DNA of 64,000 bases from Candidatus Woesearchaeota archaeon (lineage in GTDB: Archaea; Nanobdellota; Nanobdellia; Woesearchaeales; 0-14-0-80-44-23), in assembly GCA_026394965.1 (NCBI GenBank), contig JAPLZQ010000103.1:13028-77027 (forward strand), written 5' to 3'. Shown here piece by piece: positions 34,754-49,451 of this stretch; the first letter of the stretch is position 1; every line of letters starts with the position of its first letter. The position numbers were made by a program, and so were the translations under genes. Below the pieces are notes generated by a model that had not been told where the DNA came from, made no database searches, and saw only the letters and a list, made by a program, of their open reading frames with translations.

Positions 34754-34840
34754 GTGATTGAATCAATGTTGGGGCATGCAGCAATTGAATCAATGCTTTT
34801 TGGCATCTGGCCCTTCACTTCAGAAATTGAATCAATGCTT
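34754..34840. repeat. tandem array of three about 27 bp degenerate repeats, each centred on the palindrome ATTGAATCAAT
   Basis: Palindrome cores at 34757-34767, 34784-34794 and 34826-34836. The longer units GCATGCAG(T/C)(G/A)ATTGAATCAATG(C)TT(TTT)GG are repeated. They overlap weak ORFs on both strands (34585-34977 minus, 34721-34924 plus). Confidence 0.5.
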
Positions 34841-35325
34841 TTTGACGCACTGCCTTCCTGCCAAGAAATTCCAAGAGTCATAATTGAAGCAGCAGTGCGT
34901 GGAGAGATTTCATACTGCGGGTAAGTGTTCAGCCAGTCATGCTCTCTGTTTTCATTTCCCCATCTCATTTTTATCACTCGAAAAATTCTTTTAGATTTTT
35001 TCAGATACCCTAACTCCCTCGCTCTGATTTTGCAGGCATAGCCAGATTAAATAGAGAAGGATATTTTAATTTATCGGGAAAAAATAAAAAACGGCTTGGA
35101 AAAGAGAGAATTATCATAAAAATCCGCATAAACTTCAAAGTCCAAAGAATTACTGCATGGACTCGTTTTGAAAATATCCTGCCAATTTAAAAGCTATGAG
35201 GGATTAGTTACCATTATTTGATAGTGAAAAAACCGAAATATTTATAAACCCTTTCTGAATTGTTATCACTGCCAGTCAATAATAAACCGGCAATAATCTC
35301 ATTTAAAAGGATTGGGGGTAATAAC

Positions 35326-36837
35326 ATGTTAGGCATCGGACAGAAGGCGCAGGCAAGTAATTACCAGCAGCAGATAAGGGATATGGTTTCTTACATAAAT
35401 CAGCATTTCATAGCAGAGGCTCCAAAAGACATATACCTCAATGAATCGCAGGAGGGTATAGGCGGGCACACAAAAGGAGCCCTTCTTAAAGAGGCAATAG
35501 AGAGCGCAAAAAGCAAAAAGCCGATTTCAGAAAATATCCTTCCCATCACAACCACAATGCTTGCATTAAACTCTTGCATCGGAAACAACACCCTCATTTC
35601 AGGAGATGTTGGGACAGGAAAGACAAGGCTCGCAAGCGTAATAGGCTCAATGGTTTACCAAATCCCAGTTGAGATTTTTGACTGGAGAAAAATTGTCGGA
35701 AGCCCGGGAGCAACAGTCAATGACATTTATGCAACTCACGACATCGCTGAACTAAACAAGGGAATAGACATGGCATTTCTTTATCTCCCATTCCATATGC
35801 CTTACCTTATCATAGATGAACTCAACAGGTTCTCTGAACTTGAGCAGAACAGGATAAGAGAGGGCGTTGCAAATGATGTGTGGAACTATGCAAACCACTC
35901 ATGGAAGATAGACAAACAGGTTGTTGTATCAGCAATGAACCCCGATGTTTACGGAGGCACATTCTCCCTCAATGAAAATCTTGTGGACAACTACTCAATT
36001 CTCCTTTGGCCGCCAACATACAATCCAATAGCGCACCAGCATCTTGTAGAGCACGCCGATGAGAAGATAAAAGAGGGGCTGGGGCTTGAAGACAAGGTGG
36101 GCGAGTTTTTTGAATTCTACAAATCCCACAAGAACGATGCAAAAGCAATCAAAGATAAGATATCAGATCTTCAGCAGGCAACTGTCCAGGAATATGAAAG
36201 AAGGAAAATCCCGATAATCAAGAACGGATTTGTGTCAGAGATAAAAAAAGAGATTTCGGAAATAAGGTTTGCAGACGAGCCTCTTCTCTTCTTCTATTCA
36301 ACGCTTTCTGAGATATCCCAAAGCACAAAGTTCGGGGAAAACCGGTTTGAGGATCCAAGGTCAGATGACGAGCATGACAAGAGATACCTCTCAACAAAAG
36401 TGCTTAGGGGGCTTGCAGGAAGGTTCATGAAGGACTGGGAAATGATGTCAAAGGGGCTTGCATGGTACCTTGGAAGGGACAGAGTTACAGTTGAGGATGT
36501 GAAAACAGCATTTGTATTCACATCAGCAGCAAGGATAAACCCTGAAGAAAGATTCAAGCAGAAGGTATGGAACAGCCAAAGAAGCCTCCCCATAAGGCAC
36601 GCTATTGCAAAGCAGGTTATTGATGACTCATTCAAAAACTACACTGATTACACAAGCGCAGACAAGTCATTTGAGCATGTCAGAAAGGCAATACTCATGA
36701 TAACTGAGAATGAGCTTAATGCAGAAACAATCTCTGAAGCAAGAAAAGACCTGGAAATGAGCGACCATCCTGTTGCAAGGACAATTGAAGAAGCTCTCCT
36801 TTGCATGCAATATGAAAGCATGCAGAACAGAAAGTAA
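35326..36837 (+). CDS. MoxR-family AAA+ ATPase with a C-terminal extension of about 250 aa
   Basis: Walker A GDVGTGKT, Walker B LIIDELNRF (the MoxR-type DE(I/L)NR), sensor-1 VVSAMNP, and an ENLVDNYS segment in the position of the MoxR LDRF box. The likely start is the ATG at 35326, preceded by GGGGG. The ORF track starts at 35260. Confidence 0.7.
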   Translation: MLGIGQKAQASNYQQQIRDMVSYINQHFIAEAPKDIYLNESQEGIGGHTKGALLKEAIESAKSKKPISENILPITTTMLALNSCIGNNTLISGDVGTGKTRLASVIGSMVYQIPVEIFDWRKIVGSPGATVNDIYATHDIAELNKGIDMAFLYLPFHMPYLIIDELNRFSELEQNRIREGVANDVWNYANHSWKIDKQVVVSAMNPDVYGGTFSLNENLVDNYSILLWPPTYNPIAHQHLVEHADEKIKEGLGLEDKVGEFFEFYKSHKNDAKAIKDKISDLQQATVQEYERRKIPIIKNGFVSEIKKEISEIRFADEPLLFFYSTLSEISQSTKFGENRFEDPRSDDEHDKRYLSTKVLRGLAGRFMKDWEMMSKGLAWYLGRDRVTVEDVKTAFVFTSAARINPEERFKQKVWNSQRSLPIRHAIAKQVIDDSFKNYTDYTSADKSFEHVRKAILMITENELNAETISEARKDLEMSDHPVARTIEEALLCMQYESMQNRK

Positions 36838-36866
36838 GCGAATCACTTGGCTTGAGAATAAAAAAA

Positions 36867-38171
36867 ATGACTCTTTTTGACATGTCTGGAATAGAGAAAA
36901 GGGAAACAAAGGAAAACTCTCACGGATTAGAGGCGCTCCTCAATGCAGGAGACGCATTCTTCAATGAATTCGGGAGGTTATCCTGGAAAGAAATGATTGA
37001 CTTAATGAAAAAAAACAGAAATTATGCCAAAGAGTTCATAAAAGAAAAACTTAATGGGACAGAGTATTCTACAGAAGACATAGAGGACTATGTTATCATA
37101 AAAAGCGCAGAAGGAACAAGGAATTCAAGCTCCCTAAATTCAAATGTTCTTGGTGAATACTCGGGAAAAATTCTCAGCCTTCTCACAGAGGAAAATTCAA
37201 GTAAAGGAAAAAAAACAGTGATAAAAATTGACGGAAAAGGCGGGACTTTTGACCGTCTTTTTTACGGCGCAGAATTCTTTGATGAAGTATACATCTCAAA
37301 CATGAATGGAGAGGGAATATGCTCATCAATGGCGAACGGCAACATCCTTGCCCTAAACAACTGCAACGGGGGTAATACTGCAACATTCATCGGCGCAGGA
37401 AGCAACGGAGGCGTTAAGGCAGCAATACTGAACAATGCAAATAGCACGCACAATCTATTTTACGATGCTGCGTTTATAAACGGGCACATAGGGCTTGCCA
37501 TGCTCAACAACTCAACAGACAGTTACCATATAGAAATGGCCCTTTCTCTGATATACCCGGGAATAGAGCGGCTTGTAATACGAAACAAATTCAATCCCGA
37601 AAAATTCCAATTTGAAGATTTGCCTGTTGAGGATGGAAATGAAAATAAAGATTTCAAATTTTATGCTGATGAATATGCATTTGGAATAGAAAACGATTCA
37701 GAGATAATGGTTGCAAACAACGTCAGAAATAAAAGAGAATATGGCGGGCATCTATTCGGAAGGATGATTGAGCCAAACACTGAACTGCAGGAATTCCTGA
37801 AAAAAAACGGGATTGACAGAATGGCTGAGCTTTCAGACAAAATGGTGGATGCGGACTTAGACACTATTCAGGAAAATGCCAGAATGATTTACCATATTCA
37901 CAACGAAACTGCAACAAAAGAAATGCTCGAAGGAAGAGACAGATATTATCATACAATAAGACTTTTTGAAGAAATTGTTCCTGATGTTCTTGAAGAAATC
38001 CCCAGAAAACCAAAAGATGATTCAAATAATTATCCAAATCAGGAAAAAATCTATGAAAACGCCGGAGAAAAGATACAGAAGAAGGCAAGCAGGTGGATTA
38101 AAAACACATGGTATGACATAAGAGAAATATTTTTCATAAATCAGATAATGGACAAGATAAGGGGCAGATGA
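36867..38171 (+). CDS. paralog 1 of tandem GIEKREKKE-motif / Gly-Asn periodic-repeat family
   Basis: N-terminal MTLFDMSGIEKRETKE. Core KKTVIKIDGKGGTFDRLFYGAEFFDEVYISNMNGEGICSSMANGNILALNNCNGGNTATFIGAGSNGGVKAAILNNANS, then the C-terminal helix ELQEFLKKNGIDRMAELSDKMVDADLDTIQENARMIYHIHNE. The ORF track starts at a TTG at 36852. Confidence 0.6.
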   Translation: MTLFDMSGIEKRETKENSHGLEALLNAGDAFFNEFGRLSWKEMIDLMKKNRNYAKEFIKEKLNGTEYSTEDIEDYVIIKSAEGTRNSSSLNSNVLGEYSGKILSLLTEENSSKGKKTVIKIDGKGGTFDRLFYGAEFFDEVYISNMNGEGICSSMANGNILALNNCNGGNTATFIGAGSNGGVKAAILNNANSTHNLFYDAAFINGHIGLAMLNNSTDSYHIEMALSLIYPGIERLVIRNKFNPEKFQFEDLPVEDGNENKDFKFYADEYAFGIENDSEIMVANNVRNKREYGGHLFGRMIEPNTELQEFLKKNGIDRMAELSDKMVDADLDTIQENARMIYHIHNETATKEMLEGRDRYYHTIRLFEEIVPDVLEEIPRKPKDDSNNYPNQEKIYENAGEKIQKKASRWIKNTWYDIREIFFINQIMDKIRGR

Positions 38172-38186
38172 AATTCGGTGAAAAAA

Positions 38187-39566
38187 ATGGCATTCAGCGA
38201 TCTTACTGGAATAGAGAAAAGGGAGAAAAAGGAAATAATTTCTTCTGGATTAGAGATGCTTCTTCAGGCAGGAGACGCATTTCTAAACAAATTTTCCAGA
38301 CTATCAATTGAGGAACATGTGGATTTGGAAATGAACAACCACAGTTATGCTGAAGATTTTATAAAAGAAAAACTGAGAGGAGTTGAGTATTGCGCTGCAG
38401 ACATAGTGGACTATGTTATCATAAAAAGCAGGGAAAACGCACAGGAGCGCGGATATCTCGAGGAAGAAGATCTTGCCAGATATTCAGGGATAATTCTAAG
38501 CAGGCTTACAGAGAAAAATTCGAGGAAAGGAAAAAAAACAGTAATAAAAATTGACGGAAAAAATGGTACCTTTAACAATCTTTTTCGTGGAGCAGAATTC
38601 TTTGATGAGATATACATCTCCAACATGAACGGGGGATGGCTGTGCTCAGCAATGGCAAACGGCAATATTCTCGTGCTAAACAACTGCAGCAGCAACGGCG
38701 CTGCAGCATTCATAGGAATGGGAATGAACGGCGGAGTCAAGACAGCAATATTGAACAATGTAACCGAACCTTCATATAAATTAAGACAGGCATTTGGATC
38801 AGTCGATAAATCCGATAAATTTTTTAATATTGCAAATTTAGAGGGGCATGTCGGGCTTGCTATGATCAACAATTCGGCAAACGATGAGGTCATGCAGTCT
38901 TATGATATTGAAACGTTGCATTATCATTCAATCACACATTATTCAATAGCAGAACAGCTGGTAATACGCAACTTCCCTTATCAAAAAAACCCATTTAAAG
39001 AATGGCATCTTAAGAGAATAGGCGACTCTGCAAACTGCGGATTGTATTCTGAAAGCGGGGCGGTATTATTTTCTTACAACATATCCCCCTTACCAGTAAT
39101 CGACTGCTCGCAGGTAATTATTGAAAATAATTTCTATAATTTAGGATTATATACTAACCATCAATTCGGAGAAACAACAGACCCAACTGCTGAAATCCAG
39201 GAATTCCTGAGAAAAAACGGGATGGACAGAATCATTGCGCTTGCAGATGAAATGACTGAAGCAGACTTAGACACAATACAGAAAAACGCCAGACAGATTT
39301 ACCGGATTCACGAAGAAACCGCAACACCAAAAATGCTCAAAGGAAGAGAAAACTACTGTTTCTCAATGAGACGCTCCAAAGAAAATATTCCCGATGTTCT
39401 CGAAGAATTCAGTTCAAACATTCAGAATGGTTCAGATTCAGGAAAAATCTACGAAAGCGCTGAAGAAAAAATACAAAAGAAAAGAGACAGATGGATTAAA
39501 AACGCTCAGTATGACATAAAAAAGATGTCTTTCATAAAATGGGCAATAGACAAAATAAGAAGATAA
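38187..39566 (+). CDS. paralog 2 of tandem GIEKREKKE-motif family
   Basis: MAFSDLTGIEKREKKE..., the same core (KKTVIKIDGKNGTFNNLFRGAEFFDEIYISNMNGGWLCSAMANGNILVLNNCSSNGAAAFIGMGMNGGVKTAILNN), and C-terminal EIQEFLRKNGMDRIIALADEMTEADLDTIQKNARQIYRIHEE. About 45% identical to paralog 1. Confidence 0.6.
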   Translation: MAFSDLTGIEKREKKEIISSGLEMLLQAGDAFLNKFSRLSIEEHVDLEMNNHSYAEDFIKEKLRGVEYCAADIVDYVIIKSRENAQERGYLEEEDLARYSGIILSRLTEKNSRKGKKTVIKIDGKNGTFNNLFRGAEFFDEIYISNMNGGWLCSAMANGNILVLNNCSSNGAAAFIGMGMNGGVKTAILNNVTEPSYKLRQAFGSVDKSDKFFNIANLEGHVGLAMINNSANDEVMQSYDIETLHYHSITHYSIAEQLVIRNFPYQKNPFKEWHLKRIGDSANCGLYSESGAVLFSYNISPLPVIDCSQVIIENNFYNLGLYTNHQFGETTDPTAEIQEFLRKNGMDRIIALADEMTEADLDTIQKNARQIYRIHEETATPKMLKGRENYCFSMRRSKENIPDVLEEFSSNIQNGSDSGKIYESAEEKIQKKRDRWIKNAQYDIKKMSFIKWAIDKIRR

Positions 39567-39581
39567 AATTCGGTGAAAAAA

Positions 39582-41453
39582 ATGGCAGAAGACAAAAAGC
39601 AGGGCGCGGAAGACAAAAAGCTTGAGGAAATCATAAAGAAATGCTTTGAGGAGACAAAGGACCGGTATCTCAGACCTCCGATAAGCGGACCTCTGATAGT
39701 TGACTCTGAAATTGAAATGAACGGCTTGGGAACAGCATTTCTGAACTTCCTTGACTTATCCATTGGAATAAATGCCCCTTTTCTTAAAAAAATGGCAGGA
39801 TATGCCAATGGTGATATTGAAAAGATGGCAAAGGGAATTTTCACCCACGAAATCGGGCATTATATGTTTTTTCCCCAGAATGTAAGCCTTTCACTTTACC
39901 TCTCATATGAGGCAGAGGAGAATTTCAAGGAAAACAGCGCAATAATATACGCCCTTTTCGCTGACTATGTCAACAATTCTCTCATCTATTACCAGCAGGT
40001 TGAGGCAGAGAGTTTGAAAGGGCTACTTGCAAGCTCATATCTCGACAAAAAAAACAGGGCAACAAACAGCGCAATGGCCTTAAGCTACGGAAAAAGGATG
40101 AAAGAGGAATTCTCCGTTGACCTAAGCGGCTTTGAAGAGGAAACCATGAAAAAAATAATCAAGGCAGCAGACGAGATTGATTCAGTAACAGTTAGCATGA
40201 GCAGGAACTACAACCTGCAGTATTCCCAACTCCGAAGATTCGGAGAGGCAATACTTCCCCTTCTTAATATTGACAGGCAAAAAATGAAGGAGAATCAGAA
40301 GAATAACTGCGACAAAAATTGCCAAAACAACGGGGGGCAGGGTGAAAACCCTTGCAATTGCCCTTCTGGCGGGGGCTCAAGAATAATAACCAAGGAAGAT
40401 TTTGACAAGCTTCCCGCTGAAGATAAGCAGAAGATAAAGCAGGCAATAAGGGAAATGATAAAGCACATGGACAAGAAGAAATATGAAAAAATAAAGGAGC
40501 ATTTCCTTGGAAAAGAGAGCGCTAAGAAAGACAGGGCTCCTGGAATCGGAACAGGCATAGAAAATGTGGAATCTGCTGAAGATAAAACAACTGAGTACTA
40601 CAAGGAGCTTGCAGCAGAATACGGGATATTCATAAGGCCCAAGAAAACAAGAACCTTATCCTCAACAAAGCAGGTTTTCGGAAAAGAGGACTTCAAGATG
40701 GACAGCCCGCCGATAGGGATAGACACAAGATACTCCGGCGGAAAAATACTTCCGGGGCTTACAAAGAAAATCAGGATAGAGTCAATACCTTACCTAAAAA
40801 ACTCACAGTCGCTCCCTTCTCTCATAATATACAAGGACGCATCAGGAAGCATGCCTAATCCCCAGCAAGAGACATGCTATGCAACCCTTGCCGGAACAAT
40901 ATTCATAATGAGCTATTTTCGGAGCGGATGCAATGTGGGAGTTTCCCTGTTTGACTCGGAAATGACAGACATATTCAGAAGCGAGGATGAGGATGAGCTG
41001 ATAAAGATGATTTGCAGCTACAAGGGCGGCGGAACATCAATTGATTTGGACAGGTTAAAAAAAGACATAGCAGAATCAAAATCAGAGATTCCAATAGACC
41101 TGAAGAAAATAAATGAGGAAGAAATCAGGAAAAACCCGCTTTTCAGGAAATACCTGAACAAAAACGGAAGGATAAGCCTTCAGGAGCTCACAAGCCAGAG
41201 CTATGTTGACCTGATGATAATAACAGACGGCGGAATCATGAATGTTGATGAGCTGATTGACTTCATGAAAAACAACGAGAAATACCGCCCTACAATAATA
41301 CACACCGGCACATTCCAGCTAGATATACCGGGATATGACCAGCAGCACACCTGCTCTTATGGGGGAATAACCGTGTTCAAGGCGGACTCAAAAGAGGACC
41401 TTGTGAGAATATCGCAGGACATAATTGAAAAGAACCTTATTTCAGGCAACTAA
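39582..41453 (+). CDS. von Willebrand factor A (vWA) domain protein with complete MIDAS, fused to an N-terminal HExxH zincin-like region and a Cys-rich linker
   Basis: C-terminal vWA with MIDAS residues all present: DASGS in IIYKDASGSM, the Thr in KGGGTS, and the Asp in LMIITDGG. The N-terminal region contains FTHEIGHYMFF (HExxH). The linker is CDKNCQNNGGQGENPCNCPSGGG. The start ATG at 39582 shares the upstream 22 bp AAATTCGGTGAAAAAAATGGCA with paralog 2. Confidence 0.65.
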   Translation: MAEDKKQGAEDKKLEEIIKKCFEETKDRYLRPPISGPLIVDSEIEMNGLGTAFLNFLDLSIGINAPFLKKMAGYANGDIEKMAKGIFTHEIGHYMFFPQNVSLSLYLSYEAEENFKENSAIIYALFADYVNNSLIYYQQVEAESLKGLLASSYLDKKNRATNSAMALSYGKRMKEEFSVDLSGFEEETMKKIIKAADEIDSVTVSMSRNYNLQYSQLRRFGEAILPLLNIDRQKMKENQKNNCDKNCQNNGGQGENPCNCPSGGGSRIITKEDFDKLPAEDKQKIKQAIREMIKHMDKKKYEKIKEHFLGKESAKKDRAPGIGTGIENVESAEDKTTEYYKELAAEYGIFIRPKKTRTLSSTKQVFGKEDFKMDSPPIGIDTRYSGGKILPGLTKKIRIESIPYLKNSQSLPSLIIYKDASGSMPNPQQETCYATLAGTIFIMSYFRSGCNVGVSLFDSEMTDIFRSEDEDELIKMICSYKGGGTSIDLDRLKKDIAESKSEIPIDLKKINEEEIRKNPLFRKYLNKNGRISLQELTSQSYVDLMIITDGGIMNVDELIDFMKNNEKYRPTIIHTGTFQLDIPGYDQQHTCSYGGITVFKADSKEDLVRISQDIIEKNLISGN

Positions 41454-41482
41454 AAGCAATAGGGGTGATGGGGAAGTGAAAA

Positions 41483-42394
41483 ATGCCAATAGAAGAACTA
41501 TCAAAAGTGGAGAAGAGGGAAACAATAGAGCACAAAAGCACCGCAGAGGAATTCATAAAAAAATGCGGGGAAGCAACAGAAGAGATAAGCGCATTATGCG
41601 CCCAGAAGAAAAACCGCGGTTTTCAAATTGACACAATACGCGACGTATACACCCCGATGGACCGGCTTCTTGAAAAAAGCCTTTCAGAGCTCGACTATTC
41701 GGCAGCGGACATTGAAACATTCATAAGTTCAGAGTACCATCGAGAAATTGCAGACGCAAAAAGATTGCCGCTGGGAGTCTGCACCAGAATAACACTGGAA
41801 ACCCTCACAAAAAAAAACAGGGCAAAAGGAGAAAAAACAGTAATAAAAATTGACGGCAGCTGGAATGAATTTAACTACTTATTTTTCGGCATACAAAACT
41901 TTGACGAGATATACCTCTCAAACATGAAAGGAGAGAGAATACTCTCAGTATCTGATGGAGGCAAGTGCGGAACAGCTGTCCTAAACAATATTGAAGGAAG
42001 CGGTTTGTGCTCATACCTTGATTACAACATTGGTTCACTTGATAATCTAATCTGCAATATGTCTAAGACGTTTTATTTTAAGGATATGCACCGGTCTAAA
42101 CCAAGAAATATTGGCTTTGCCCTGTTAAGCGATTGCATGGTAAATTCTGATGATCAATTCAACTGCTGCTATTTCAGAGAAATTTTGGGAGAAAAAGAAC
42201 CAATTAAGGAAGACAAGGAAAAATATGAGATTATCCTTGAGCTTGCAGCAAAGATGACTGACTCACCAATAGATGAAATAGAAAACCTTAGCCGGCAGAT
42301 AATACAAATCTATCGCTCAGATAAAGAGGATGAGAATATCATAGAGAAAACCAGCAAAACAGGATATGCCCATTTCAAATGGCTTAAGAGATGA
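41483..42394 (+). CDS. paralog 3 of tandem GIEKREKKE-motif family (short, divergent)
   Basis: MPIEELSKVEKRETIEHKS..., core KTVIKIDGSWNEFNYLFFGIQNFDEIYLSNMKGERILSVSDGGKCGTAVLNNIEGSG. The repeat region is truncated. 303 aa. Confidence 0.55.
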   Translation: MPIEELSKVEKRETIEHKSTAEEFIKKCGEATEEISALCAQKKNRGFQIDTIRDVYTPMDRLLEKSLSELDYSAADIETFISSEYHREIADAKRLPLGVCTRITLETLTKKNRAKGEKTVIKIDGSWNEFNYLFFGIQNFDEIYLSNMKGERILSVSDGGKCGTAVLNNIEGSGLCSYLDYNIGSLDNLICNMSKTFYFKDMHRSKPRNIGFALLSDCMVNSDDQFNCCYFREILGEKEPIKEDKEKYEIILELAAKMTDSPIDEIENLSRQIIQIYRSDKEDENIIEKTSKTGYAHFKWLKR

Positions 42395-42429
42395 AAAAAA
42401 TCAAAAAGAAGTGATAAGGAAAACAAAAA

Positions 42430-43323
42430 ATGCCGCTAAACGAGCTTACCGGAATAGAGAAAAGGAATAAAAAGGAAAAGGGAGAGGACAGGACTGAATA
42501 TTTCACAAGAATCAGCAACGGAATAGTCAAAAGCATGCTCAAAGAGTTCGTGAGAATGAGAAAAAGAATCCTTGTCAAGTTCATTGAGGAAACAGATGAG
42601 GAAAGAAAGGAATTTGTCAAAAACGCTATTGGAAGCTTTGAATACAATGAGAGGGATTTGGAAGGGTTGATACAGGCAAAAATTGAAGATGAGAACAAAT
42701 CGCCAATGCTCGGTTACTATACAGGAATTCTTCTGGAAATGCTTACTGAAAGGAACAGAAAAAAGGGAATTGAGACAACTGTCAGGATTGACGGATGCGG
42801 AAGGGACTTTCCCTACCTTTTCATGGGAGCAAGAAACTTTGACAATGTCTACATCTCCAACATAACCGGAGATAAAATACTTTCAAATTCGCTTGATGGA
42901 GGAAGGGGAAAGACAGCGGTTATAAGCGGGCTTAAGGGAGATTCTGCAGCATACTGGATGGCGCGCAAGGGAATGCTTGACCTGCTTGTGATAAATGATT
43001 CTATCGGCGAATTCACTGCAGCAGGAATCGCTGAAGGAGGCTGCATAAAAAGGGTGGTTCTAAGGAACATTACAAGCGACACTGGTTTAACACTTGAATT
43101 CGCGAAAATGAACAACGGCAAAATCCCAGAACTGATTTATGATGCAAAACCGGGAATGTTATCCGGCATAGGCGATTATATCACTATGAAATTCGGGCGC
43201 GTTCCAAGAAGGAGGGGCTCCCTTGAATGCGCAGCCAAGATGAGCGGCGCATCAGTTTATGACATAGAGAAATACGCAAATGAGATAAACAGCCTGTTCA
43301 GAGAAAAAAATGCCACTAAATGA
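42430..43323 (+). CDS. paralog 4 of tandem GIEKREKKE-motif family
   Basis: MPLNELTGIEKRNKKEKGE..., core ETTVRIDGCGRDFPYLFMGARNFDNVYISNITGDKILSNSLDGGRGKTAVISGLKGDSAAYW... 297 aa. Confidence 0.55.
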   Translation: MPLNELTGIEKRNKKEKGEDRTEYFTRISNGIVKSMLKEFVRMRKRILVKFIEETDEERKEFVKNAIGSFEYNERDLEGLIQAKIEDENKSPMLGYYTGILLEMLTERNRKKGIETTVRIDGCGRDFPYLFMGARNFDNVYISNITGDKILSNSLDGGRGKTAVISGLKGDSAAYWMARKGMLDLLVINDSIGEFTAAGIAEGGCIKRVVLRNITSDTGLTLEFAKMNNGKIPELIYDAKPGMLSGIGDYITMKFGRVPRRRGSLECAAKMSGASVYDIEKYANEINSLFREKNATK

Positions 43324-44428
43324 GCTTATTGGAATAGAGAAACGGGAGAAAAATGATAACCCAGAGAGCCAACTTGAAAAGCTGCTTGAAATCGGGGAGG
43401 ATGTTGTAAAAAAATTCGGGAAAAGCGAGCTTGCGGACAGAATTACATATGACAACCGGTTTGAGCCGATTTCAAAATTAAGGGAGAAGATAGAAATCTA
43501 CTGCATGAGAAGCATTGAAAACATTGAATACACAGAAAAGGACATAGAGTCATTTGTGAACGGCAGATTGGGCGTCTCACGGGATACTGGTGAGCAGGTA
43601 ACCATAGGAACTTATTCTGGAATCATTTTGGACATATTAACCATGAAAAACCGGGAAAAGGCAAAAGGAACAAGAATAGCGATTGATGGGAAAGGCGAAG
43701 AGTTTGACTATCTGTTTTCCTGTGCGAAAAACTTTGATGAGGTTTATGTCTCAAACATAAAAGGAGACTACATCTGCACATATGCGGGGGCAGAAGGATA
43801 TGGAAAGATGATAGTCCTGAATGATATTAAAGGCGACTACATTGGAAAATCAATTGCTGCATTGCGCGGAAATGTTGAGATTGCAGTTATAAATCGCGCA
43901 GAAGGATTAGGAACCGGGCATGAAATCGCCTCATACCACGGGAATGCTGGATTAATTATTGTAAACAATGCGATTGGAAGGGAAACATTGATGGACGTGG
44001 CTGTTGAAGGCGGAAGCATAGGGCTCGCTTTGATAAACAAGGCAATTGGCGATTATACTGCCTGGTGCGCAGCTTATGATTCAGGGAGCATTGGGGACCT
44101 CGTAATAACAAACTCAAAAACCAAATCAGAAAAAGGATTTGATATTGATGTAACCAGGATAAAAAACATCCTCCTGAAAATGAATAAATTCAACTTCTCA
44201 AACAAAACTGGCAAAGGAATGCTTATTGGAAACAATGAAGATATGGAAAAGAGTTTCAATGAAGATTACCGAATAAATGAATTATCAGATGCTGTTAAAA
44301 AAATCGTAAAGAAAAAAGAAATTGAAGGGATTATAAAACAGGCAGGAAAGATACAGTCAATATATGAAACCATAAAAGAGAGAGTTGAAGGAGACCTGGC
44401 ATGGATAAAGGAGCATTCGGAGATTTAG
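43310..44428 (+). CDS. paralog 5 of tandem GIEKREKKE-motif family
   Basis: MPLNELIGIEKREKNDNPE. Its first 36 nt are nearly identical to the paralog 4 start. Core TRIAIDGKGEEFDYLFSCAKNFDEVYVSNIKGDYICTYAGAEGYGKMIVLNDIKGDYIGKSIAALRGNVEIAVINRAEGLGTGHEIASYHGNAGLIIVNNAIGRETLMDVAVEGGSIGLALINKAIGDYTAW. 372 aa. Overlaps the paralog 4 stop. Confidence 0.6.
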   Translation: MPLNELIGIEKREKNDNPESQLEKLLEIGEDVVKKFGKSELADRITYDNRFEPISKLREKIEIYCMRSIENIEYTEKDIESFVNGRLGVSRDTGEQVTIGTYSGIILDILTMKNREKAKGTRIAIDGKGEEFDYLFSCAKNFDEVYVSNIKGDYICTYAGAEGYGKMIVLNDIKGDYIGKSIAALRGNVEIAVINRAEGLGTGHEIASYHGNAGLIIVNNAIGRETLMDVAVEGGSIGLALINKAIGDYTAWCAAYDSGSIGDLVITNSKTKSEKGFDIDVTRIKNILLKMNKFNFSNKTGKGMLIGNNEDMEKSFNEDYRINELSDAVKKIVKKKEIEGIIKQAGKIQSIYETIKERVEGDLAWIKEHSEI

Positions 44429-45321
44429 ACGCAATAGAGAAGCGGGAGAAGAAGGAATACCCGCACACACTTGAAGCGCTGATAGAGGCAGAAGAGAAAA
44501 TAAAACCAAAAATCCTGGGGAGATACCCGTCCTATCCAAGAGAGACAGACAAGTATCTTGATGTGCTTTCCCTTGCTGGAGAAGCCCTCAAAAAAACTGA
44601 TTACACGGAAAAAGACATAGAAAACTTTGTGCTTTCCCAATCAGGAAGCGGGGAAAATGAAAGCGAGGAAATGTTTATTGGGATTTACGCGGGAGCAATT
44701 GTGGAAAACCTTGGAAGGAGAAAAGGCAGGAAAAAAACAATAATTGCAATTGACGGAAAGGGAAGGAAATTCAACTACCTCTTCCACTGCATAAGGAATT
44801 TCGGGGAGATATACCTCTCAAACTTCAACGGCACATACATATGCCACAATGCAGCAAGCTACGGAAAGGGCGAAATCCTTGTGCTCAACAGAGTTAAAGG
44901 AAATGGAAACGGCGGATATGCCGGCTCAAAGGGAAAAATAGGGCTTGCAATACTTAATGAAACAGGCGCTGTAAATGAATTCACAATTCTCAGGCAGATG
45001 ATAAATTTCGGGTACAATGAAAAATTCAACATAGAACGCTTTGTGATAAAGGAAAAAAATGTCAAGCTTAGCAAAATGGCGCAGGTTTTCAAAAGGGAAA
45101 TTGAAGTTCCTGAACTGCTTGAGGTTTACAAACTGTCAGAAGAAACAATAAACGGAAACAAACCAGGCAGTTTATACGAAACTACAAGAGTCCAGAAAAT
45201 CAAAATCAAGAGTAAGGAAAAAAAAGAGATAAACAGTTTAACAGAAGAGATGGAAAGCGCAGAAATCGGAGAAATGGCAGATATTGCAAAACGCATAAGG
45301 GAGCTGTGCTATGAACAATAG
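44401..45321 (+). CDS. paralog 6 of tandem GIEKREKKE-motif family
   Basis: MDKGAFGDLDAIEKREKKEYPHTLEALIEAEE..., core KKTIIAIDGKGRKFNYLFHCIRNFGEIYLSNFNGTYICHNAASYGKGEILVLNRVKGNGNGGYAGSKGKIGLAILNETG. 306 aa. Confidence 0.55.
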   Translation: MDKGAFGDLDAIEKREKKEYPHTLEALIEAEEKIKPKILGRYPSYPRETDKYLDVLSLAGEALKKTDYTEKDIENFVLSQSGSGENESEEMFIGIYAGAIVENLGRRKGRKKTIIAIDGKGRKFNYLFHCIRNFGEIYLSNFNGTYICHNAASYGKGEILVLNRVKGNGNGGYAGSKGKIGLAILNETGAVNEFTILRQMINFGYNEKFNIERFVIKEKNVKLSKMAQVFKREIEVPELLEVYKLSEETINGNKPGSLYETTRVQKIKIKSKEKKEINSLTEEMESAEIGEMADIAKRIRELCYEQ

Positions 45322-46417
45322 AAAAACGCCTTTTGATGAAATGTCAGGAATAGAGAAAAGGGAGAAGAAGGAATATTCGCACACACTTGAAGCCCTAATT
45401 GAAGAATCTGGACATTCTGTAAAGAGGATGCTTTCAATGATGATAAAAGCAATGGCTTGGAATGACCTTAGCGGAATGTACATTCACGCATTTCATGAAG
45501 CATCAGAAGAACTTGAAGGGGTTGAATACAACGAAAGAGACCTGTCTGACTTCATAACAGCAAACAGTGGAATTCCAATGGAAAGCGATGAAGAATGCGC
45601 TCTTGGAGTATACTCTGGGATACTGCTTGACCTGCTTACAAGAAGGAGAAGAAAAGAGGGGAAGAAGTCAGTTGTAAAGATTGAAGGCGCAGGAAAGGAA
45701 TTCCATTATCTCTTTTATTATGCAAAAAACTTTGATGAGGTTTACATATCAAACATTGAAGGCGACAAAATCTGCTCAAGGATGGGAAGCCACAGCGGAA
45801 GCGGAAATTTCATAGTGCTTAACAATGTGAATGGAAATTTCATCGCAGACACAGTAGGATACAGCAGCGGAAAAGTGAATATGGTTGTGATAAACAATTC
45901 TCGCGGAATAATGGCTGGAAACAGCATTGCTGAACGCGGAAGCGCTGGATTAATAGTCCTGAACAGCATAAATGCTGCAGGAGATATAGGATGCGCAATT
46001 GCAAAAGAGGGGGAAGCCGGAACAGTCATATTAAACAATCTTAACGGAGACAGGATAGGAGATTACTGCGGAAGCGCTAAAGGAAAAATCGGGAATATTG
46101 CATACCTGTCAATAAAAGCAAAAGAATCAGTCGGCGAATTTGTGCCTGATTATGAGAGCGAAATCGGGAAGATGATAATACTGGACAGCCATGTTAAAAA
46201 TCGCAATGTTGGGGCGGAATTCAGCGGATTCGGCAGATCTGAAATAATAACTGAACAGGAAAATGAAAAAGCAGAAAGGGCGCTGGAAGAAACAGGGATT
46301 AAAGAAATAATCCTGCTTGCAGATGAAATGGGAAAATTTGGCGCTGAAAGATATGAGGAATACGCTCATAAGATTTATTGCTCATACAAAATGGCAGGTG
46401 GAAAATATGCCTTTTGA
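45311..46417 (+). CDS. paralog 7 of tandem GIEKREKKE-motif family
   Basis: ...FDEMSGIEKREKKEYSHTLEALIEESG, where the N-terminus is near-identical to paralog 6 at the nucleotide level. Core KKSVVKIEGAGKEFHYLFYYAKNFDEVYISNIEGDKICSRMGSHSGSGNFIVLNNVNGNFIADTVGYSSGKVNMVVINNSRGIMAGNSIAERGSAGLIVLNSINAAGDIGCAIAKEGEAGTVILNNLNGDRIGDYCGSAKGKIGNIAYL. 368 aa. Confidence 0.6.
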   Translation: MNNRKTPFDEMSGIEKREKKEYSHTLEALIEESGHSVKRMLSMMIKAMAWNDLSGMYIHAFHEASEELEGVEYNERDLSDFITANSGIPMESDEECALGVYSGILLDLLTRRRRKEGKKSVVKIEGAGKEFHYLFYYAKNFDEVYISNIEGDKICSRMGSHSGSGNFIVLNNVNGNFIADTVGYSSGKVNMVVINNSRGIMAGNSIAERGSAGLIVLNSINAAGDIGCAIAKEGEAGTVILNNLNGDRIGDYCGSAKGKIGNIAYLSIKAKESVGEFVPDYESEIGKMIILDSHVKNRNVGAEFSGFGRSEIITEQENEKAERALEETGIKEIILLADEMGKFGAERYEEYAHKIYCSYKMAGGKYAF

Positions 46418-47480
46418 TGAGCTTTCGGGAATAGAGCTGAGAGAAAAAGCAGGGCAGGATAAAAATGCTCTTGAAAAAATCCTTGAAATCTGCGATTATC
46501 TTTGCAGAAACACTTCAGAGGTATACCGCTACCTTTTCGACACCATGAACTCTGATTCAGAATTCTATTCACATGTGCGCTCCTTCGCTCTCTCAAAAAC
46601 CAGGAATATTGATTTCAATGAAAAAGACATTTGTGACTTCATTATTGCAAAATCCTATGAAAAGCAGGAAAAGGAAGGGGTAATAGGGCTTTTTTCAGGA
46701 GTTCTCCTTGACATACTTACAGAAAGAAACAGGAAGCAAAAAAAGAAGACGATAATCAAGATTGACGGCAAAGGCGCAAAATTCAGCTACCTGTTCTACG
46801 GCGCAAGAAACTTTGACGAGATATACCTTTCAAACTTCAACGGCAGATACATCTGCGCAAAGATAGGGAGCGAAGGGAGAGGCGGGATAGCTGCGCTTTC
46901 CAGAATTGACGGAAGCTACACAGGAGAATCGGCAGGGGCATTCTCTGGAGGAATAGATGCGCTGATTGTAAACTCGGCAACTGACAATGAGCTCTGCTCA
47001 AAAATTGGTTTTTCCGGGGGAAAAGCAGGATTAGTGCTGATAAGCAATTCAAAAGCATTTCTTGCAGGAAGCTCAATTGCAAGAGATGGCTCTGCAGGCA
47101 TGATTGTCCTTAACCAGATAATTTCAGAGCACATTGGCGATTACATAGGAGAAGGAGGGCATGTTAAAAAGCTTGCAATGAACAGCCTGTCGGGCTCCTA
47201 TGTTGGCAGAAACATCGGGACAAATAATGGAGAGGTAAGCGAGATAGCGCTCAGGGATATAAAAGCGAGCTATGTTTTTTCATCAGCAAATTTTGAAAGG
47301 ACAAGGAGCCTCATCAGGTACAATGATAATGAAGCTGAAATCTATTTCAGGAAAAACCGCATTGACAGAATCATCTCGCTTTCAGAGGATATTGATTTGG
47401 CAGATGATATTGATGAACTGGAAAGGATATCAAAAAAGATTTATCGGGAATACAGAAAAGGGATGAAAAATGGGGCTTGA
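46407..47480 (+). CDS. paralog 8 of tandem GIEKREKKE-motif family
   Basis: MPFDELSGIELREKAGQDK..., core KKTIIKIDGKGAKFSYLFYGARNFDEIYLSNFNGRYICAKIGSEGRGGIAALSRIDGSYTGESAGAFSGGIDALIVNSATDNELCSKIGFSGGKAGLVLISNSKAFLAGSSIARDGSAGMIVLNQIISEHIGDYIGEGGHVKKLAMNSLSGSYVGRNIG. The ORF track begins upstream at 46317. Confidence 0.6.
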   Translation: MPFDELSGIELREKAGQDKNALEKILEICDYLCRNTSEVYRYLFDTMNSDSEFYSHVRSFALSKTRNIDFNEKDICDFIIAKSYEKQEKEGVIGLFSGVLLDILTERNRKQKKKTIIKIDGKGAKFSYLFYGARNFDEIYLSNFNGRYICAKIGSEGRGGIAALSRIDGSYTGESAGAFSGGIDALIVNSATDNELCSKIGFSGGKAGLVLISNSKAFLAGSSIARDGSAGMIVLNQIISEHIGDYIGEGGHVKKLAMNSLSGSYVGRNIGTNNGEVSEIALRDIKASYVFSSANFERTRSLIRYNDNEAEIYFRKNRIDRIISLSEDIDLADDIDELERISKKIYREYRKGMKNGA

Positions 47481-48549
47481 AGAGCTTTCGGAAATAGAAA
47501 AGAGAAAACCCAGCATCGCAAATAAAAGCGGGCTTGATGCGGTAATATCTGGAATGGAAGAATGCGTGAGCAGGGTAAAGACAATGATGATTCTTCCTTT
47601 TCCACTCTATTCCATACAAAAGGTCTATGAGATAGCAGAGAAAAGGCTGGAATCAGCAGATTATTCTGAAGATGAGATAATTGACTGCATAATTGCAGGC
47701 AGGAAATATGAAGATTATGGGAACAAGGCAATAGCAGGCGCATACACAGGAGCTCTCCTCAGCATCCTTACTGAAAGAAACAGTAAAAAAGGCAGGAAAA
47801 CAATAATGTATGTTGATGAAAAATGCAGCGGGTTTGACTATCTGTTCTACAATGCAAGAAGCTTTGATGAGGTTTACCTGAATAATTTCAACGGCGATTA
47901 TGCATGCTATGGAATGGAAAACGGAAGAAGGGCAGTTGTTAACAATTCGCATGGAGACACAATGTTCTGGGACATTGCATCTGGAAAAATTGAAAAAAGA
48001 GACAATGCGCATCCAAATGCGGAAATGATACTTATTAACAATTACCAGCCAAATGTTTATTTCAATACTGAGATAGGCTCTTTTGCAGGAGCATACGGGG
48101 GCTCAATAGGGCTTTTCCTTGCAAACAGCTGCTGCAGCTGGCAGACAGGAAGGGACATTGCCTACAGCGAGGGCTTTGCAGACACGGTAATACTCAACAA
48201 GACAAAAGGGGATGAAATCGGGAATGGAATTGCATGCAACAGAGGAAGGGTGAATAATCTTCTCATAATCGGAGGAAGCCAGAATTTTGTAGGAAATGAC
48301 ATTGCTCAGGTAGGCGGCTCTGTCGGAAACCTTCTTGTGCAGGGAAAGAAAGGAAAGGTGATGTGCGGGGCTAACTTTTACCGGGTTGAAAGGCAGATAA
48401 GCAGGAGCAGGAACAAGAGAAGGTTCATGGAAAAAAGGGGAATACCAAAGATTCTTGCATTAGCCGAGCAGATGAAAACAGCTGGAAAAGATGAGATTAT
48501 CATGCTCTCTGAGCAAATCTGGCAGGAATACACAGAAAACAGAAAATGA
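47470..48549 (+). CDS. paralog 9 of tandem GIEKREKKE-motif family (most divergent)
   Basis: MGLEELSEIEKRKPSIANKS..., core RKTIMYVDEKCSGFDYLFYNARSFDEVYLNNFNGDYACYGMENGRRAVVNNSHGDT..., then Gly-rich repeats and C-terminal GIPKILALAEQMKTAGKDEIIMLSEQIWQEY. 359 aa. Confidence 0.55.
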   Translation: MGLEELSEIEKRKPSIANKSGLDAVISGMEECVSRVKTMMILPFPLYSIQKVYEIAEKRLESADYSEDEIIDCIIAGRKYEDYGNKAIAGAYTGALLSILTERNSKKGRKTIMYVDEKCSGFDYLFYNARSFDEVYLNNFNGDYACYGMENGRRAVVNNSHGDTMFWDIASGKIEKRDNAHPNAEMILINNYQPNVYFNTEIGSFAGAYGGSIGLFLANSCCSWQTGRDIAYSEGFADTVILNKTKGDEIGNGIACNRGRVNNLLIIGGSQNFVGNDIAQVGGSVGNLLVQGKKGKVMCGANFYRVERQISRSRNKRRFMEKRGIPKILALAEQMKTAGKDEIIMLSEQIWQEYTENRK

Positions 48550-48611
48550 ATTTTTATTAAAATCAATTATTTAAAAACATATTTATATTGCAACACTCAT
48601 TTCCTGTGATT

Positions 48612-49226
48612 ATGATTAAAGCAGTTGCTTTTGACCTGGGAGGAGTGTTGTTCTCATGCGGAACACCTATTGCAGTTGAAAGAATCTCTAAAAAGCACGG
48701 CTATGAAAAGAATCTCATAAGCGACCTGCTATCCTCTGAAAAGAGCATAAAGTTAAGAAAGGGGAAGATGAGCGATAATGCATTTTGGAAATGGGCTGAA
48801 AAAACCCTGCCTGCGGGATACAATGTTGCGACAATCAAGAGGGAATGGTATGACTGCTACATCATAGACGGAGAGGTATTTCAGCTGATAAAAGAGCTCT
48901 TCATGAACAAAAGAATAAATCTTCTTGTTTTCTCTGGAAACATACGCTCAAGGGTGCTTTATCTTAACAAGAAATACGGCTTCCGGAAGTACTTTGACCA
49001 TGAGGTATACTCATTTGACCACGGCTGCATGAAGGGCAGCAAAGAGTTTGTGAAGAAACTCATATCCGAGGCAGGATGCAAACCGCCTGAAATCCTTTAC
49101 ATTGATGATAATCCAATCCAGGCGAAGCCTGCTTCTATGATGGGAATAAACCTTCTCATATACAAAAAGGGAAAAATTGAAGAACTTAAGGAAGGGATAA
49201 AAAGATTCGGGATAGCGCTGAGATAA
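48612..49226 (+). CDS. HAD-superfamily hydrolase
   Basis: MIKAVAFDLGGVLF is HAD motif I (DxG/D). FSGN is motif II-like, and IDDNP with a downstream Lys gives motifs III/IV. The ORF track starts at 48588. Confidence 0.55.
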   Translation: MIKAVAFDLGGVLFSCGTPIAVERISKKHGYEKNLISDLLSSEKSIKLRKGKMSDNAFWKWAEKTLPAGYNVATIKREWYDCYIIDGEVFQLIKELFMNKRINLLVFSGNIRSRVLYLNKKYGFRKYFDHEVYSFDHGCMKGSKEFVKKLISEAGCKPPEILYIDDNPIQAKPASMMGINLLIYKKGKIEELKEGIKRFGIALR

Positions 49227-49355: not shown

Positions 49356-49451
49356 CTTATTATTTATAATTTATTTTTAATTTCTAAATTATTCAGTCGT
49401 TTCTTTTTCCATCCATGCTTTTTCTTATTAAAGAAAAAGGATGGGTGCGCT

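What the first reader, a model, noticed from the sequence alone, without database searches (positions are those of the whole stretch)
35326..48549. Undescribed MoxR-AAA+ / vWA-zincin / nine-paralog operon (about 13 kb, all on + strand, tightly packed)
Directly visible: a MoxR-type AAA+ ATPase (Walker A GDVGTGKT, Walker B IIDELNR, sensor VVSAMNP), a protein fusing an HExxH (HEIGH) region to a vWA domain with all MIDAS residues (DASGS, T, D), and nine tandem paralogs of one protein family. They are arranged MoxR, P1, P2, vWA, P3-P9, with 0-14 nt gaps or overlaps. Established: MoxR ATPases are almost always genetically coupled to vWA proteins, for example RavA-ViaA, CbbQ-CbbO, NorQ-NorD and GvpN contexts. 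MoxR-vWA pairs have also been reported as cores of diversifying 'ternary' NTPase systems implicated in biological conflict. Inference: the nine diversified cytoplasmic (no signal peptide) paralogs are substrates or effectors remodelled by, or assembled with, the MoxR-vWA pair. That would make either a conflict/defence system with a rapidly diversifying sensor or effector family, or a filament-forming beta-solenoid family needing a chaperone-like ATPase. The paralog family is not one I recognise.
Basis: partly seen in the sequence, partly recalled or inferred. Interest (0 to 1): 0.92.

Follow-up and report, generated by a model that had tools for sequence, protein, structure and literature searches.

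The report
MoxR-vWA operon with beta-helix paralog array
A tiny symbiotic archaeon (Woesearchaeota) carries a 13-kb operon in which a chaperone-type ATPase and its metal-site adaptor, fused to a putative protease, sit among nine fast-diverging copies of an undescribed beta-helix protein; relatives carry from 1 to about 77 copies.

Summary
Window 35326-48549 holds eleven tightly packed + strand genes: a divergent MoxR AAA+ ATPase, a 626-aa protein with an invariant N-terminal HExxH motif and a C-terminal vWA/MIDAS domain, and nine paralogs (PAR).

PAR matches no Pfam, NCBIfam, PADLOC, PHROGs or PDB sequence. An AlphaFold model (pLDDT 91) shows a helical bundle, a right-handed parallel beta-helix and C-terminal helices. 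Only 343 representatives exist among 1.84 billion proteins; all hits named by a source are Woesearchaeota.

The gene triad recurs. In 11 distinct loci MoxR is always followed by PAR, and vWA is present wherever the DNA extends far enough. Copy number runs from 1 to about 77 (32 verified in one genome).

Paralogs cluster by genome. Against a near relative, dN/dS is 0.31 for PAR and 0.04 for MoxR. A flexible N-terminal tag is conserved within genomes but differs between them.

Best reading: MoxR plus vWA-zincin acts on a diversifying, tag-bearing repertoire of cytoplasmic beta-helix binding proteins, most likely in defence or host interaction. Function is inferred, not shown. Some distant PAR genes lack neighbouring MoxR/vWA. 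This is a new variant of MoxR-vWA systems built around a new protein family.

The parts
35241..35248 (+). TTTATAAA, an archaeal TATA-box-like element about 78 nt upstream of the MoxR ATG. A GGGGGT Shine-Dalgarno-like element lies at 35314-35319.
   Evidence: Read directly from the sequence. Promoter function is inferred, not tested.
35326..36837 (+). MoxR-type AAA+ ATPase, 503 aa. Walker A at G93-T100, Walker B at D164/E165, sensor-1 at N205. Longer than typical MoxR proteins.
36852..38171 (+). PAR paralog P1 (439 aa from the TTG start; NCBI aa from the ATG at 36867).
38178..39566 (+). PAR paralog P2 (462 aa), 54% identical to P1.
39573..41453 (+). Adaptor protein of 626 aa. It has an N-terminal helical domain with invariant HExxH, a Cys/Gly-rich linker, a conserved beta-hairpin region (residues about 361-409) and a C-terminal vWA domain with a complete MIDAS motif.
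39846..39860 (+). Codons for HEIGH (residues 92-96), the putative zinc-binding motif. D131 (D or E in 15 of 15 homologues) is a candidate third ligand.
   Evidence: Motif only; the fold was not tested.
40836..40850 (+). Codons for DASGS (residues 422-426), the MIDAS DxSxS motif. T488 and D552 complete the site.
41483..42394 (+). PAR paralog P3 (303 aa).
42430..43323 (+). PAR paralog P4 (297 aa).
43310..44428 (+). PAR paralog P5 (372 aa).
44401..45321 (+). PAR paralog P6 (306 aa).
45311..46417 (+). PAR paralog P7 (368 aa), the one modelled. N-terminal tag at residues 8-20, helical bundle at 25-115, about 8 beta-helix rungs at 119-310, C-terminal helices at 315-361.
46407..47480 (+). PAR paralog P8 (357 aa from the ATG at 46407, which matches the other paralogs' N-termini). 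The ORF is open from 46317.
47470..48549 (+). PAR paralog P9 (359 aa), the last gene of the module.

Best explanation
This is a self-contained three-component system restricted, as far as sampled, to Woesearchaeota and related DPANN archaea.

Shown:
- A MoxR AAA+ ATPase and a vWA/MIDAS protein carrying an invariant HExxH motif are encoded together with one to many copies of a new cytoplasmic protein family (PAR).
- PAR has a flexible, conserved N-terminal tag (hydrophobic-x-x-L-x-G-I-x-x-R/K), a conserved helical domain plus two conserved first beta-helix rungs, then variable rungs that differ in sequence and number.
- PAR genes multiply independently in each genome and change about eight times faster than MoxR at non-synonymous sites.

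Inferred mechanism, by analogy with NorQ/NorD, CbbQ/CbbO and Rea1:
1. A MoxR hexamer holds one vWA adaptor.
2. The adaptor's MIDAS ion grips a conserved acidic residue in the constant part of a PAR protein.
3. ATP hydrolysis remodels the PAR protein.
4. The adaptor's HExxH domain cleaves it, probably at or near the tag, or is itself switched on by it.

The variable rungs would act as ligand-binding surfaces. The array would then be a repertoire of specificity subunits sharing one activating machine. I think the most likely role is intracellular recognition of invaders (virus or other conflict). Host-cell interaction is second.
For: Linkage: in 11 distinct loci MoxR is followed on the same strand by PAR, and vWA is present in all 8 loci that extend far enough. 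L018 shows PAR x5, vWA, PAR x4.

Constant versus variable parts, as pairwise identity among the nine window paralogs: tag 53%, rungs 1-2 51%, later rungs 18-19% with indels. Long family members repeat rung blocks.

Tag: it has low pLDDT, so it is probably flexible. It is 66% identical within a genome and 30% between genomes, a ratio of 2.2 against 1.3-1.5 elsewhere in the protein. This fits co-evolution with a single-copy partner.

Diversification: paralogs cluster by genome. Copy number runs from 1 to about 77. Against L001, MoxR is 95% identical but PAR only 52-69%. dN/dS is 0.04 against 0.31. DNA identity drops from about 90% to about 55% inside P1.

Localisation: no signal peptide or TM segment.

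Precedent: the MIDAS site of NorD binds acidic residues of its client and is powered by the MoxR ring. MoxR-associated variable sensor proteins have been proposed in bacteria.

Neighbours: toxin-antitoxin or Abi genes lie beside several loci (PIN/RHH, MazE/PIN, AbiEii).
Against: - There is no experimental or expression data.
- There are no PADLOC or PHROGs matches. The window's own flanks are housekeeping genes with no defence or mobile genes.
- dN/dS is below 1 everywhere measured, so relaxed constraint is not excluded.
- The zincin fold is untested.
- Three PAR loci (L020, L021, L023) have no MoxR/vWA within 10 kb.
- Beta-helix folds are most often extracellular carbohydrate-binding proteins, which sits oddly with cytoplasmic sensors.
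- The TA/Abi neighbours are few and were not tested for enrichment.
Confidence: 0.4

Rival explanations
1. Host-interaction or surface-structure repertoire. PAR proteins would be adhesin-like or tailspike-like beta-helix binders. The MoxR/vWA-zincin machine would mature them by cleaving the tag and assemble or export them by a non-classical route. They would give this episymbiotic archaeon a variable set of host-binding proteins. A precedent is the MoxR p618 / vWA p892 pair that helps build the tails of Acidianus two-tailed virus.
For: - The top structural neighbours are polysaccharide-active enzymes, phage tailspikes and adhesins (PfbA, UpaB).
- Distribution is DPANN-restricted.
- The very large tandem arrays resemble variable surface-protein families.
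- ATV p618/p892 is a documented MoxR-vWA pair acting in assembly of a structure.
- A conserved, flexible N-terminal tag could be a sorting or processing signal.
Against: - No signal peptide, TM segment or lipobox; the N-termini are highly charged.
- No secretion genes in any of the loci.
- No conserved catalytic or sugar-binding residues in the variable rungs.
Confidence: 0.25
2. Classical MoxR-vWA maturation chaperone. The pair would insert a metal or cofactor into, or remodel, a housekeeping enzyme complex. PAR proteins would be client-specific adaptors or scaffolds, as with NorQ/NorD, CbbQ/CbbO, CoxD/CoxE and RavA/ViaA.
For: All experimentally studied cellular MoxR-vWA pairs are maturation or remodelling factors (the titles and abstracts listed). 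The vWA domain is structurally closest to NorD.
Against: - No candidate client enzyme is conserved next to the module; neighbours differ in every locus.
- A housekeeping adaptor would not be expected to vary from 1 to about 77 copies or to evolve eight times faster than its ATPase.
- PAR has no conserved ligand-like His or Cys residues.
Confidence: 0.12
3. Cytoskeletal or filament-forming beta-solenoids. PAR proteins would polymerise end to end and need the ATPase for assembly or disassembly.
For: The fold is a beta-solenoid. MoxR-vWA pairs can assist filament-related assembly.
Against: - Helical domains precede and follow the beta-helix in the model, so both ends are probably capped (inference).
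- Extreme sequence divergence and variable rung number among copies are not expected for co-polymerising subunits.
Confidence: 0.06
4. Neutral or selfish amplification. The paralog arrays would be runaway tandem duplications of a dispensable gene under relaxed constraint, with no repertoire function.
For: dN/dS is raised but below 1. Copy number is very unstable.
Against: - All 9 window copies and all 23 consecutive L022 copies are intact ORFs that match the HMM.
- The tag and first rungs remain conserved in every copy.
- Gene packing is tight, with overlaps.
- These are small, streamlined genomes.
- There are no near-identical recent duplicates.
Confidence: 0.07

Closest known systems
NorQ/NorD, CbbQ/CbbO, RavA/ViaA, CoxD/CoxE (cellular MoxR AAA+ plus vWA adaptor pairs)
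   Same: Adjacent genes for a MoxR-class ATPase and a cytoplasmic protein with a C-terminal vWA domain and a full MIDAS motif. The vWA model is best matched by NorD in the NorQD complex. In those pairs the client is engaged through an acidic residue at the MIDAS site, which is the mechanism I infer here.
   Different: - Sequence similarity is marginal: Pfam below threshold, no PDB sequence hit for the single proteins.
- The adaptor's N-terminal domain carries an invariant HExxH.
- MoxR is about 170-200 aa longer than typical (my knowledge of typical lengths).
- The linked third gene is a multi-copy, fast-evolving beta-helix protein, not a metalloenzyme.
vWA-MoxR 'ternary' conflict systems (VMAP and iSTAND types; Kaur et al. 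2020, PMC7159879)
   Same: The logic of three components: MoxR, vWA and a third, rapidly diversifying protein. Peptidase domains take part, and the proposed role is biological conflict.
   Different: - Gene order there is strictly VMAP-MoxR-vWA; here it is MoxR-PAR(n)-vWA-PAR(n) or MoxR-vWA-PAR(n).
- VMAP is all-alpha with a defined VMAP-C domain; PAR is a beta-helix.
- Effectors there are fused C-terminally to vWA; here vWA is C-terminal and HExxH N-terminal.
- Those systems occur in multicellular bacteria, these in DPANN archaea.
- There the third component is one gene per system, with up to six whole paralogous systems in one genome; here the third gene alone is present in up to about 77 tandem copies beside a single MoxR and vWA.
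Rea1/Midasin MIDAS domain binding the UBL domains of Rsa4/Ytm1
   Different: It is eukaryotic, with ATPase and MIDAS in a single giant polypeptide. Its clients are ribosome assembly factors and it has no protease motif. The parallel in client binding is inference only.
Acidianus two-tailed virus p618 (MoxR) / p892 (vWA)
   Same: An archaeal-world MoxR-vWA pair acting on several structural partner proteins.
   Different: It is viral and acts in virion tail growth. Its partners are not beta-helix paralogs. No PHROGs or IMG/VR match was found for the proteins here.
Right-handed parallel beta-helix proteins (pectin-lyase-like fold: polygalacturonases, phage tailspikes, PfbA, NosD)
   Different: - Only 5-13% identity, and no Pfam Beta_helix, PbH1 or other hit.
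- PAR is cytoplasmic by sequence.
- PAR has its own N-terminal tag plus helical bundle and C-terminal helices.
- No conserved catalytic groove residues.
DGR-diversified MoxR-associated sensor proteins (PMC10907252)
   Same: A variable ligand-binding protein genetically tied to a MoxR ATPase and a peptidase, proposed to act as an invasion sensor.
   Different: Diversity there comes from a reverse transcriptase acting on a C-type lectin fold. Here there is no RT and no template/variable repeat pair. Diversity comes from tandem duplication, divergence and rung gain or loss.

Membership tests
MoxR class of AAA+ ATPases (Pfam AAA_3, PF07726) | Walker A, Walker B (DExx), sensor-1 Asn and an AAA lid domain, in the MoxR arrangement. 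| tested here: met
   GDVGTGKT, IIDELNR and SAMNP are invariant in 26 homologues. AAA_lid_2 scores 22.3 bits against a cutoff of 22.7.
MoxR class of AAA+ ATPases (Pfam AAA_3, PF07726) | Significant sequence match to the family model or to a solved MoxR. | tested here: inconclusive
   The window protein scores 19.5 bits against a cutoff of 27. Thirteen of the 26 listed proteins of the family carry precomputed PF07726. The family profile hits MoxR structure 2r44 at E 1.2e-4. It is a divergent member.
MoxR class of AAA+ ATPases (Pfam AAA_3, PF07726) | Genetic coupling to a vWA-domain protein. | tested here: met
   vWA is in the same operon in all 8 loci whose DNA extends far enough.
vWA domain with MIDAS | The DxSxS ... 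T ... D metal-site residues. | tested here: met
   D422, S424, S426 and T488 are invariant and D552 nearly so.
vWA domain with MIDAS | The vWA (Rossmann-like alpha/beta) fold. | tested here: met
Zincin metallopeptidases | An HExxH motif in a helix, plus a downstream third ligand. | tested here: met
   H92, E93 and H96 are invariant in 15 of 15 homologues, within predicted helix 82-99. D or E at position 131 occurs in 15 of 15.
Zincin metallopeptidases | The zincin fold, or a significant family match. | tested here: inconclusive
   All fold-search hits fall on the vWA domain. Pfam gives only single-member weak hits: SprT-like at 0.047 and Peptidase_M76 at 0.18. There is no DUF2201-type hit.
VMAP/iSTAND vWA-MoxR ternary conflict systems (Kaur et al. 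2020) | The third component has a VMAP-C (all-alpha) or inactive STAND domain. | tested here: not met
   PAR is a helical bundle plus a beta-helix. No direct profile comparison with VMAP-C was possible.
VMAP/iSTAND vWA-MoxR ternary conflict systems (Kaur et al. 2020) | Strict gene order VMAP-MoxR-vWA, and effector domains C-terminal to vWA. | tested here: not met
   MoxR is first in every locus. vWA is the C-terminal domain, with HExxH N-terminal.
Known anti-phage defence systems (PADLOC-DB v2) | A match of any component to a defence-system model. | tested here: not met
   Only a P-loop-level TRIP13 hit (E 0.0026, residues 90-111) for MoxR. Nothing for vWA or PAR.
Pectin-lyase-like right-handed beta-helix superfamily | A three-sided right-handed parallel beta-helix. 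| tested here: met
Pectin-lyase-like right-handed beta-helix superfamily | Sequence-family membership (Beta_helix/PbH1) or conserved catalytic residues. | tested here: not met
   No Pfam hit at E of 1 or less. No PDB sequence hit. No conserved polar residues in rungs 3-8.

The most novel reading that the evidence does not exclude
DPANN archaea would possess a previously unrecognised germline-encoded recognition system. It would be a tandem repertoire of up to about 77 variable beta-helix receptors, each carrying a genome-specific N-terminal tag. All would be serviced by one MoxR-vWA-metalloprotease machine that activates or cleaves them on ligand binding. This would be an archaeal analogue of multi-receptor innate immune or host-recognition arrays, built from a protein family with no described relatives.
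Probability: 0.3. Interest if true: 0.88.

Novelty: new variant of a known kind. Interest (0 to 1): 0.72.

Why it matters
MoxR-vWA pairs are widespread, but only a few have known clients. Here the likely partner is obvious from the genetics and belongs to a protein family with no entry in Pfam, NCBIfam, PADLOC, PHROGs or the PDB.

Woesearchaeota have very small genomes. Even so, one of them gives roughly 80 kb of one 677-kb contig to this family, and the window's organism gives 13 kb. That argues for strong selective value.

If the paralogs are variable recognition subunits, this would be a new way for reduced-genome symbionts to sense viruses or hosts. It would also extend the MoxR-vWA 'ternary' theme from multicellular bacteria to DPANN archaea, and give a tractable three-protein system for testing how a MIDAS adaptor and an AAA+ ring hand a client to a protease.

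Tried and rejected
- **Family scans of the paralogs and the vWA protein.** Pfam, NCBIfam, PADLOC and PHROGs gave nothing above noise.
- **PDB sequence searches.** Single proteins and profiles gave nothing for PAR or vWA.
- **Word-indexed homology search with the paralog profile.** It returned only 4 proteins because of candidate truncation. The full HMMER scan was needed.
- **afdb50 fold library.** Unavailable.
- **Zincin fold of the N-terminal domain.** Could not be isolated, because both fold searches of the whole model were dominated by the vWA domain.
- **A1 pattern against IMG/VR.** No relative found.
- **Diversity-generating retroelement or recent gene conversion as the source of variation.** Rejected. 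Repeats among the paralogs are only 60-80% identical and restricted to the conserved core, and Pfam and ORF scans of the window showed no reverse transcriptase.
- **Integrated mobile element or provirus.** Rejected for the window. Flanks are housekeeping genes, no integrase was found, and the only GC dip is in the upstream spacer.
- **Testing whether the tag is lost in PAR genes that lack neighbouring MoxR/vWA.** The tag is kept, so this test was uninformative.
- **A conserved enzyme active site in PAR.** Rejected. Conserved residues are mostly hydrophobic or Gly, plus an acidic cluster in rungs 1-2.

Full report
**1.

ORF listing shows eleven + strand genes between 35326 and 48549, with spacing from a 28-nt overlap to a 35-nt gap.

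- **First gene (35326-36837).** It carries the stated Walker A, Walker B and sensor-1 motifs.
- **Fourth gene (39573-41453).** It carries HEIGH and DASGS.
- **The other nine genes.** They align with each other at 25-54% identity to P1. Each matches a family HMM at E 1e-53 to 1e-92, and nothing else in the 64-kb window matches.
- **Upstream signals.** A TTTATAAA element at 35241-35248 and a GGGGGT element 6 nt before the ATG fit an archaeal promoter and ribosome-binding site. That is reading, not proof.
- **Flanks.** Upstream are topoisomerase VI B and A. Downstream are a HAD hydrolase, tRNA-Arg and tRNA-Cys.
- **Rest of the window.** It is archaeal housekeeping (GINS, Spt5, L11, RIO, Kae1, ArgRS, GlmS), with no integrase or transposase.
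- **Source.** The contig is an NCBI MAG labelled Candidatus Woesearchaeota, locus tags NTV63_04785 onward. All genes are annotated 'hypothetical protein'.

**2. The two machine components**

*The ATPase.* It scores just under Pfam thresholds for AAA_3 and AAA_lid_2.
- It belongs to a family found as 26 clusters at 41-100% identity, 13 of which carry PF07726.
- The catalytic residues are invariant across the family.
- The family profile finds the Cytophaga MoxR structure 2r44 at E 1.2e-4.
- I treat it as a divergent, unusually long MoxR.

*The 626-aa protein.* It has no Pfam hit.
- Fifteen homologues share invariant H92, E93, H96, D422, S424, G486, G487 and T488, and nearly invariant G425, S426 and D552.
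- The AlphaFold model is moderate overall (pLDDT 74) and good for the N-terminal 250 residues.
- The vWA/MIDAS assignment is therefore solid.
- The 'zincin' assignment rests on the invariant HExxH in a predicted helix and a D/E 35 residues downstream. Its fold could not be tested, because the vWA domain dominated both searches.

**3. The paralogs are a new family with a clear architecture**

- No library or PDB sequence matches them.
- A full HMMER scan of 1.84 billion representative proteins finds only 343 relatives, of 250-540 aa.
- With 150 of them as the alignment, AlphaFold gives a confident model of P7 (pLDDT 91.4, pTM 0.89). The first 20 residues have low confidence. A helical bundle spans 25-115, about eight beta-helix rungs of roughly 24 residues follow, and three C-terminal helices end the protein.
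- None of the eleven proteins has a hydrophobic segment or signal peptide.

Conservation among the nine window copies is uneven:

| Region | Mean pairwise identity |
|---|---|
| N-terminal tag | 53% |
| Helices 71-118 | 35% |
| First two rungs | 51% |
| Later rungs | 18-19%, with indels |

Longer relatives contain repeated rung blocks. Conserved residues are hydrophobic or Gly, plus an acidic cluster in rungs 1-2. There is no obvious active site.

**4. The triad is a conserved module**

Contexts of MoxR homologues, plus a genome-collection scan, gave 11 distinct loci.
- In all 11, PAR genes directly follow MoxR on the same strand.
- The vWA gene is present in all 8 loci whose DNA extends far enough.
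- Gene order varies: MoxR-PAR-vWA, MoxR-vWA-PARn, or MoxR-PARn-vWA-PARn.
- Neighbouring genes are never the same, so the module is self-contained.
- Named sources are Woesearchaeota, Nanoarchaeota/Nanoarchaeia, and a few MAGs with doubtful labels.

Copy number varies widely: 1 (L005, L008), 2 (L002, L010), 4 (L017), 6 or more (L007), 9 (window), and about 19 or more in the J4434 genome (L012 and L018).

The HOK51/SI073_bin58 genome stands out.
- The nine genes after MoxR are PAR (L011).
- All 23 consecutive ORFs of a 22-kb stretch 38 genes downstream are PAR (L022).
- Gene tables show the same uninterrupted pattern up to two genes past HOK51_08010.
- By locus-tag arithmetic this is about 77 genes. 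Thirty-two are verified; the rest are inferred.

**5. Evolutionary behaviour**

- In an NJ tree the paralogs cluster by genome, so each lineage expanded its own set.
- A near relative (L001) has a MoxR that is 95% identical, but paralogs that are only 52% and 69% identical.
- DNA identity falls from about 90% to about 55% within the first paralog.
- At equal synonymous divergence (dS 0.52 against 0.57), dN/dS is 0.04 for MoxR and 0.31 for the orthologous paralog.
- There are no near-identical tracts or DGR-type repeats. Variation therefore comes from duplication, divergence and rung gain or loss.
- The N-terminal tag behaves differently from the rest of the protein. It is 66% identical within a genome and 30% between genomes, a ratio of 2.2 against 1.3-1.5 elsewhere. 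This is the pattern expected if every copy must fit one genome-specific partner.

**6. Limits of the linkage**

Of the PAR-first look-ups, L001, L018 and the HOK51 array lie with MoxR/vWA. L020, L021 and L023 show no MoxR/vWA of this family within 10 kb, although the tag is retained.
- In L021 the PAR gene is followed by two GHKL-type ATPase-like proteins, one ending in HECGH.
- These loci may be satellite copies or alternative partnerships. I could not decide which.

**7. Mechanism**

Established knowledge: MoxR hexamers bind one vWA adaptor, whose MIDAS ion engages an acidic residue of the client, and ATP hydrolysis remodels that client (NorQ/NorD).

On that basis I infer the following.
- The vWA-zincin adaptor docks the constant part of PAR proteins.
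- MoxR remodels them.
- The HExxH domain cleaves them at or near the tag, or is controlled by them.
- The variable rungs would supply binding specificity.

Cytoplasmic location, lineage-specific expansion, fast divergence and occasional TA/Abi neighbours favour an intracellular conflict or sensing role. The adhesin-like fold and the symbiotic lifestyle keep a host-interaction role alive. Classical cofactor-insertion, filament and neutral-amplification readings fit less well (see the rival explanations).

**8. Comparison with known systems**

The system works like a MoxR-vWA chaperone pair with a dedicated client. It also resembles the 'ternary' vWA-MoxR conflict systems in logic, but it fails their defining features: the VMAP/iSTAND third component, the VMAP-MoxR-vWA gene order, and effectors C-terminal to vWA. 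No paper in the searchable library describes it.

**9. Verdict**

This is a new variant of a known kind of system, built around a new protein family. Function is still inferred.

Noticed in passing
window 34757-34837: Three exact copies of the near-palindromic 12-mer ATTGAATCAATG lie within 80 nt, about 490-570 nt upstream of the MoxR start. They sit inside a 130-aa minus-strand ORF (34585-34977) that has no family. The window has 4 hits at one mismatch or fewer, against 1.3 expected; 6 of 100 shuffles reached 4 hits, so the count alone is not striking and the point of note is the clustering. They could be operator-like sites or a coding repeat.
   Followed up: partly
window 34085-34531: A 148-aa Lys/Asn-rich ORF with no family lies in the low-GC spacer (GC 0.354 at 34001-36000) between topoisomerase VI A and the operon.
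   Followed up: no
window 3891-4976 (+) and 20778-21914 (-): Two full-length FtsZ paralogs lie within 17 kb of each other.
   Followed up: no
window 11570-14098: An 842-aa NHL-repeat protein with an arylesterase-like stretch, large for such a small genome.
   Followed up: no
L022 1-21961; L011 11721-21390: In one Woesearchaeota genome (HOK51/SI073_bin58) the same paralog family forms an uninterrupted same-strand array. All 23 ORFs of L022 and the first 9 ORFs after MoxR in L011 match the family HMM. Locus tags and gene tables imply about 77 copies over roughly 80 kb.
   Followed up: partly
L021 6098-11437: A PAR gene is followed by a 46-aa ORF and then by two paralogous GHKL-type (Bergerat-fold-like, DDGTGY...GQFGEG) proteins of 578 and 633 aa. 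The first ends in HECGH. MazE/PIN genes lie upstream. This may be a different NTPase partner for the same family.
   Followed up: partly
L020 945-12689: Two PAR genes sit beside unknown proteins of 1151 aa and 946 aa and an FHA-caspase gene. There is no MoxR or vWA within 10 kb.
   Followed up: partly
L016 / L005 (DYKD01000001.1, CCWRTO010000001.1): A minimal MoxR-PAR-vWA triad sits at the end of a 107-kb contig. One of the two records (DYKD01000001.1) is labelled Brevinema andersonii, a spirochaete. This is probably a mis-binned or mislabelled contig, or else horizontal transfer.
   Followed up: no
window 48588-49226: A HAD-family hydrolase gene follows P9 on the same strand after 38 nt, then tRNA-Arg (49281-49356). 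It is not found beside the module in the other loci examined, so it is probably not part of it.
   Followed up: partly
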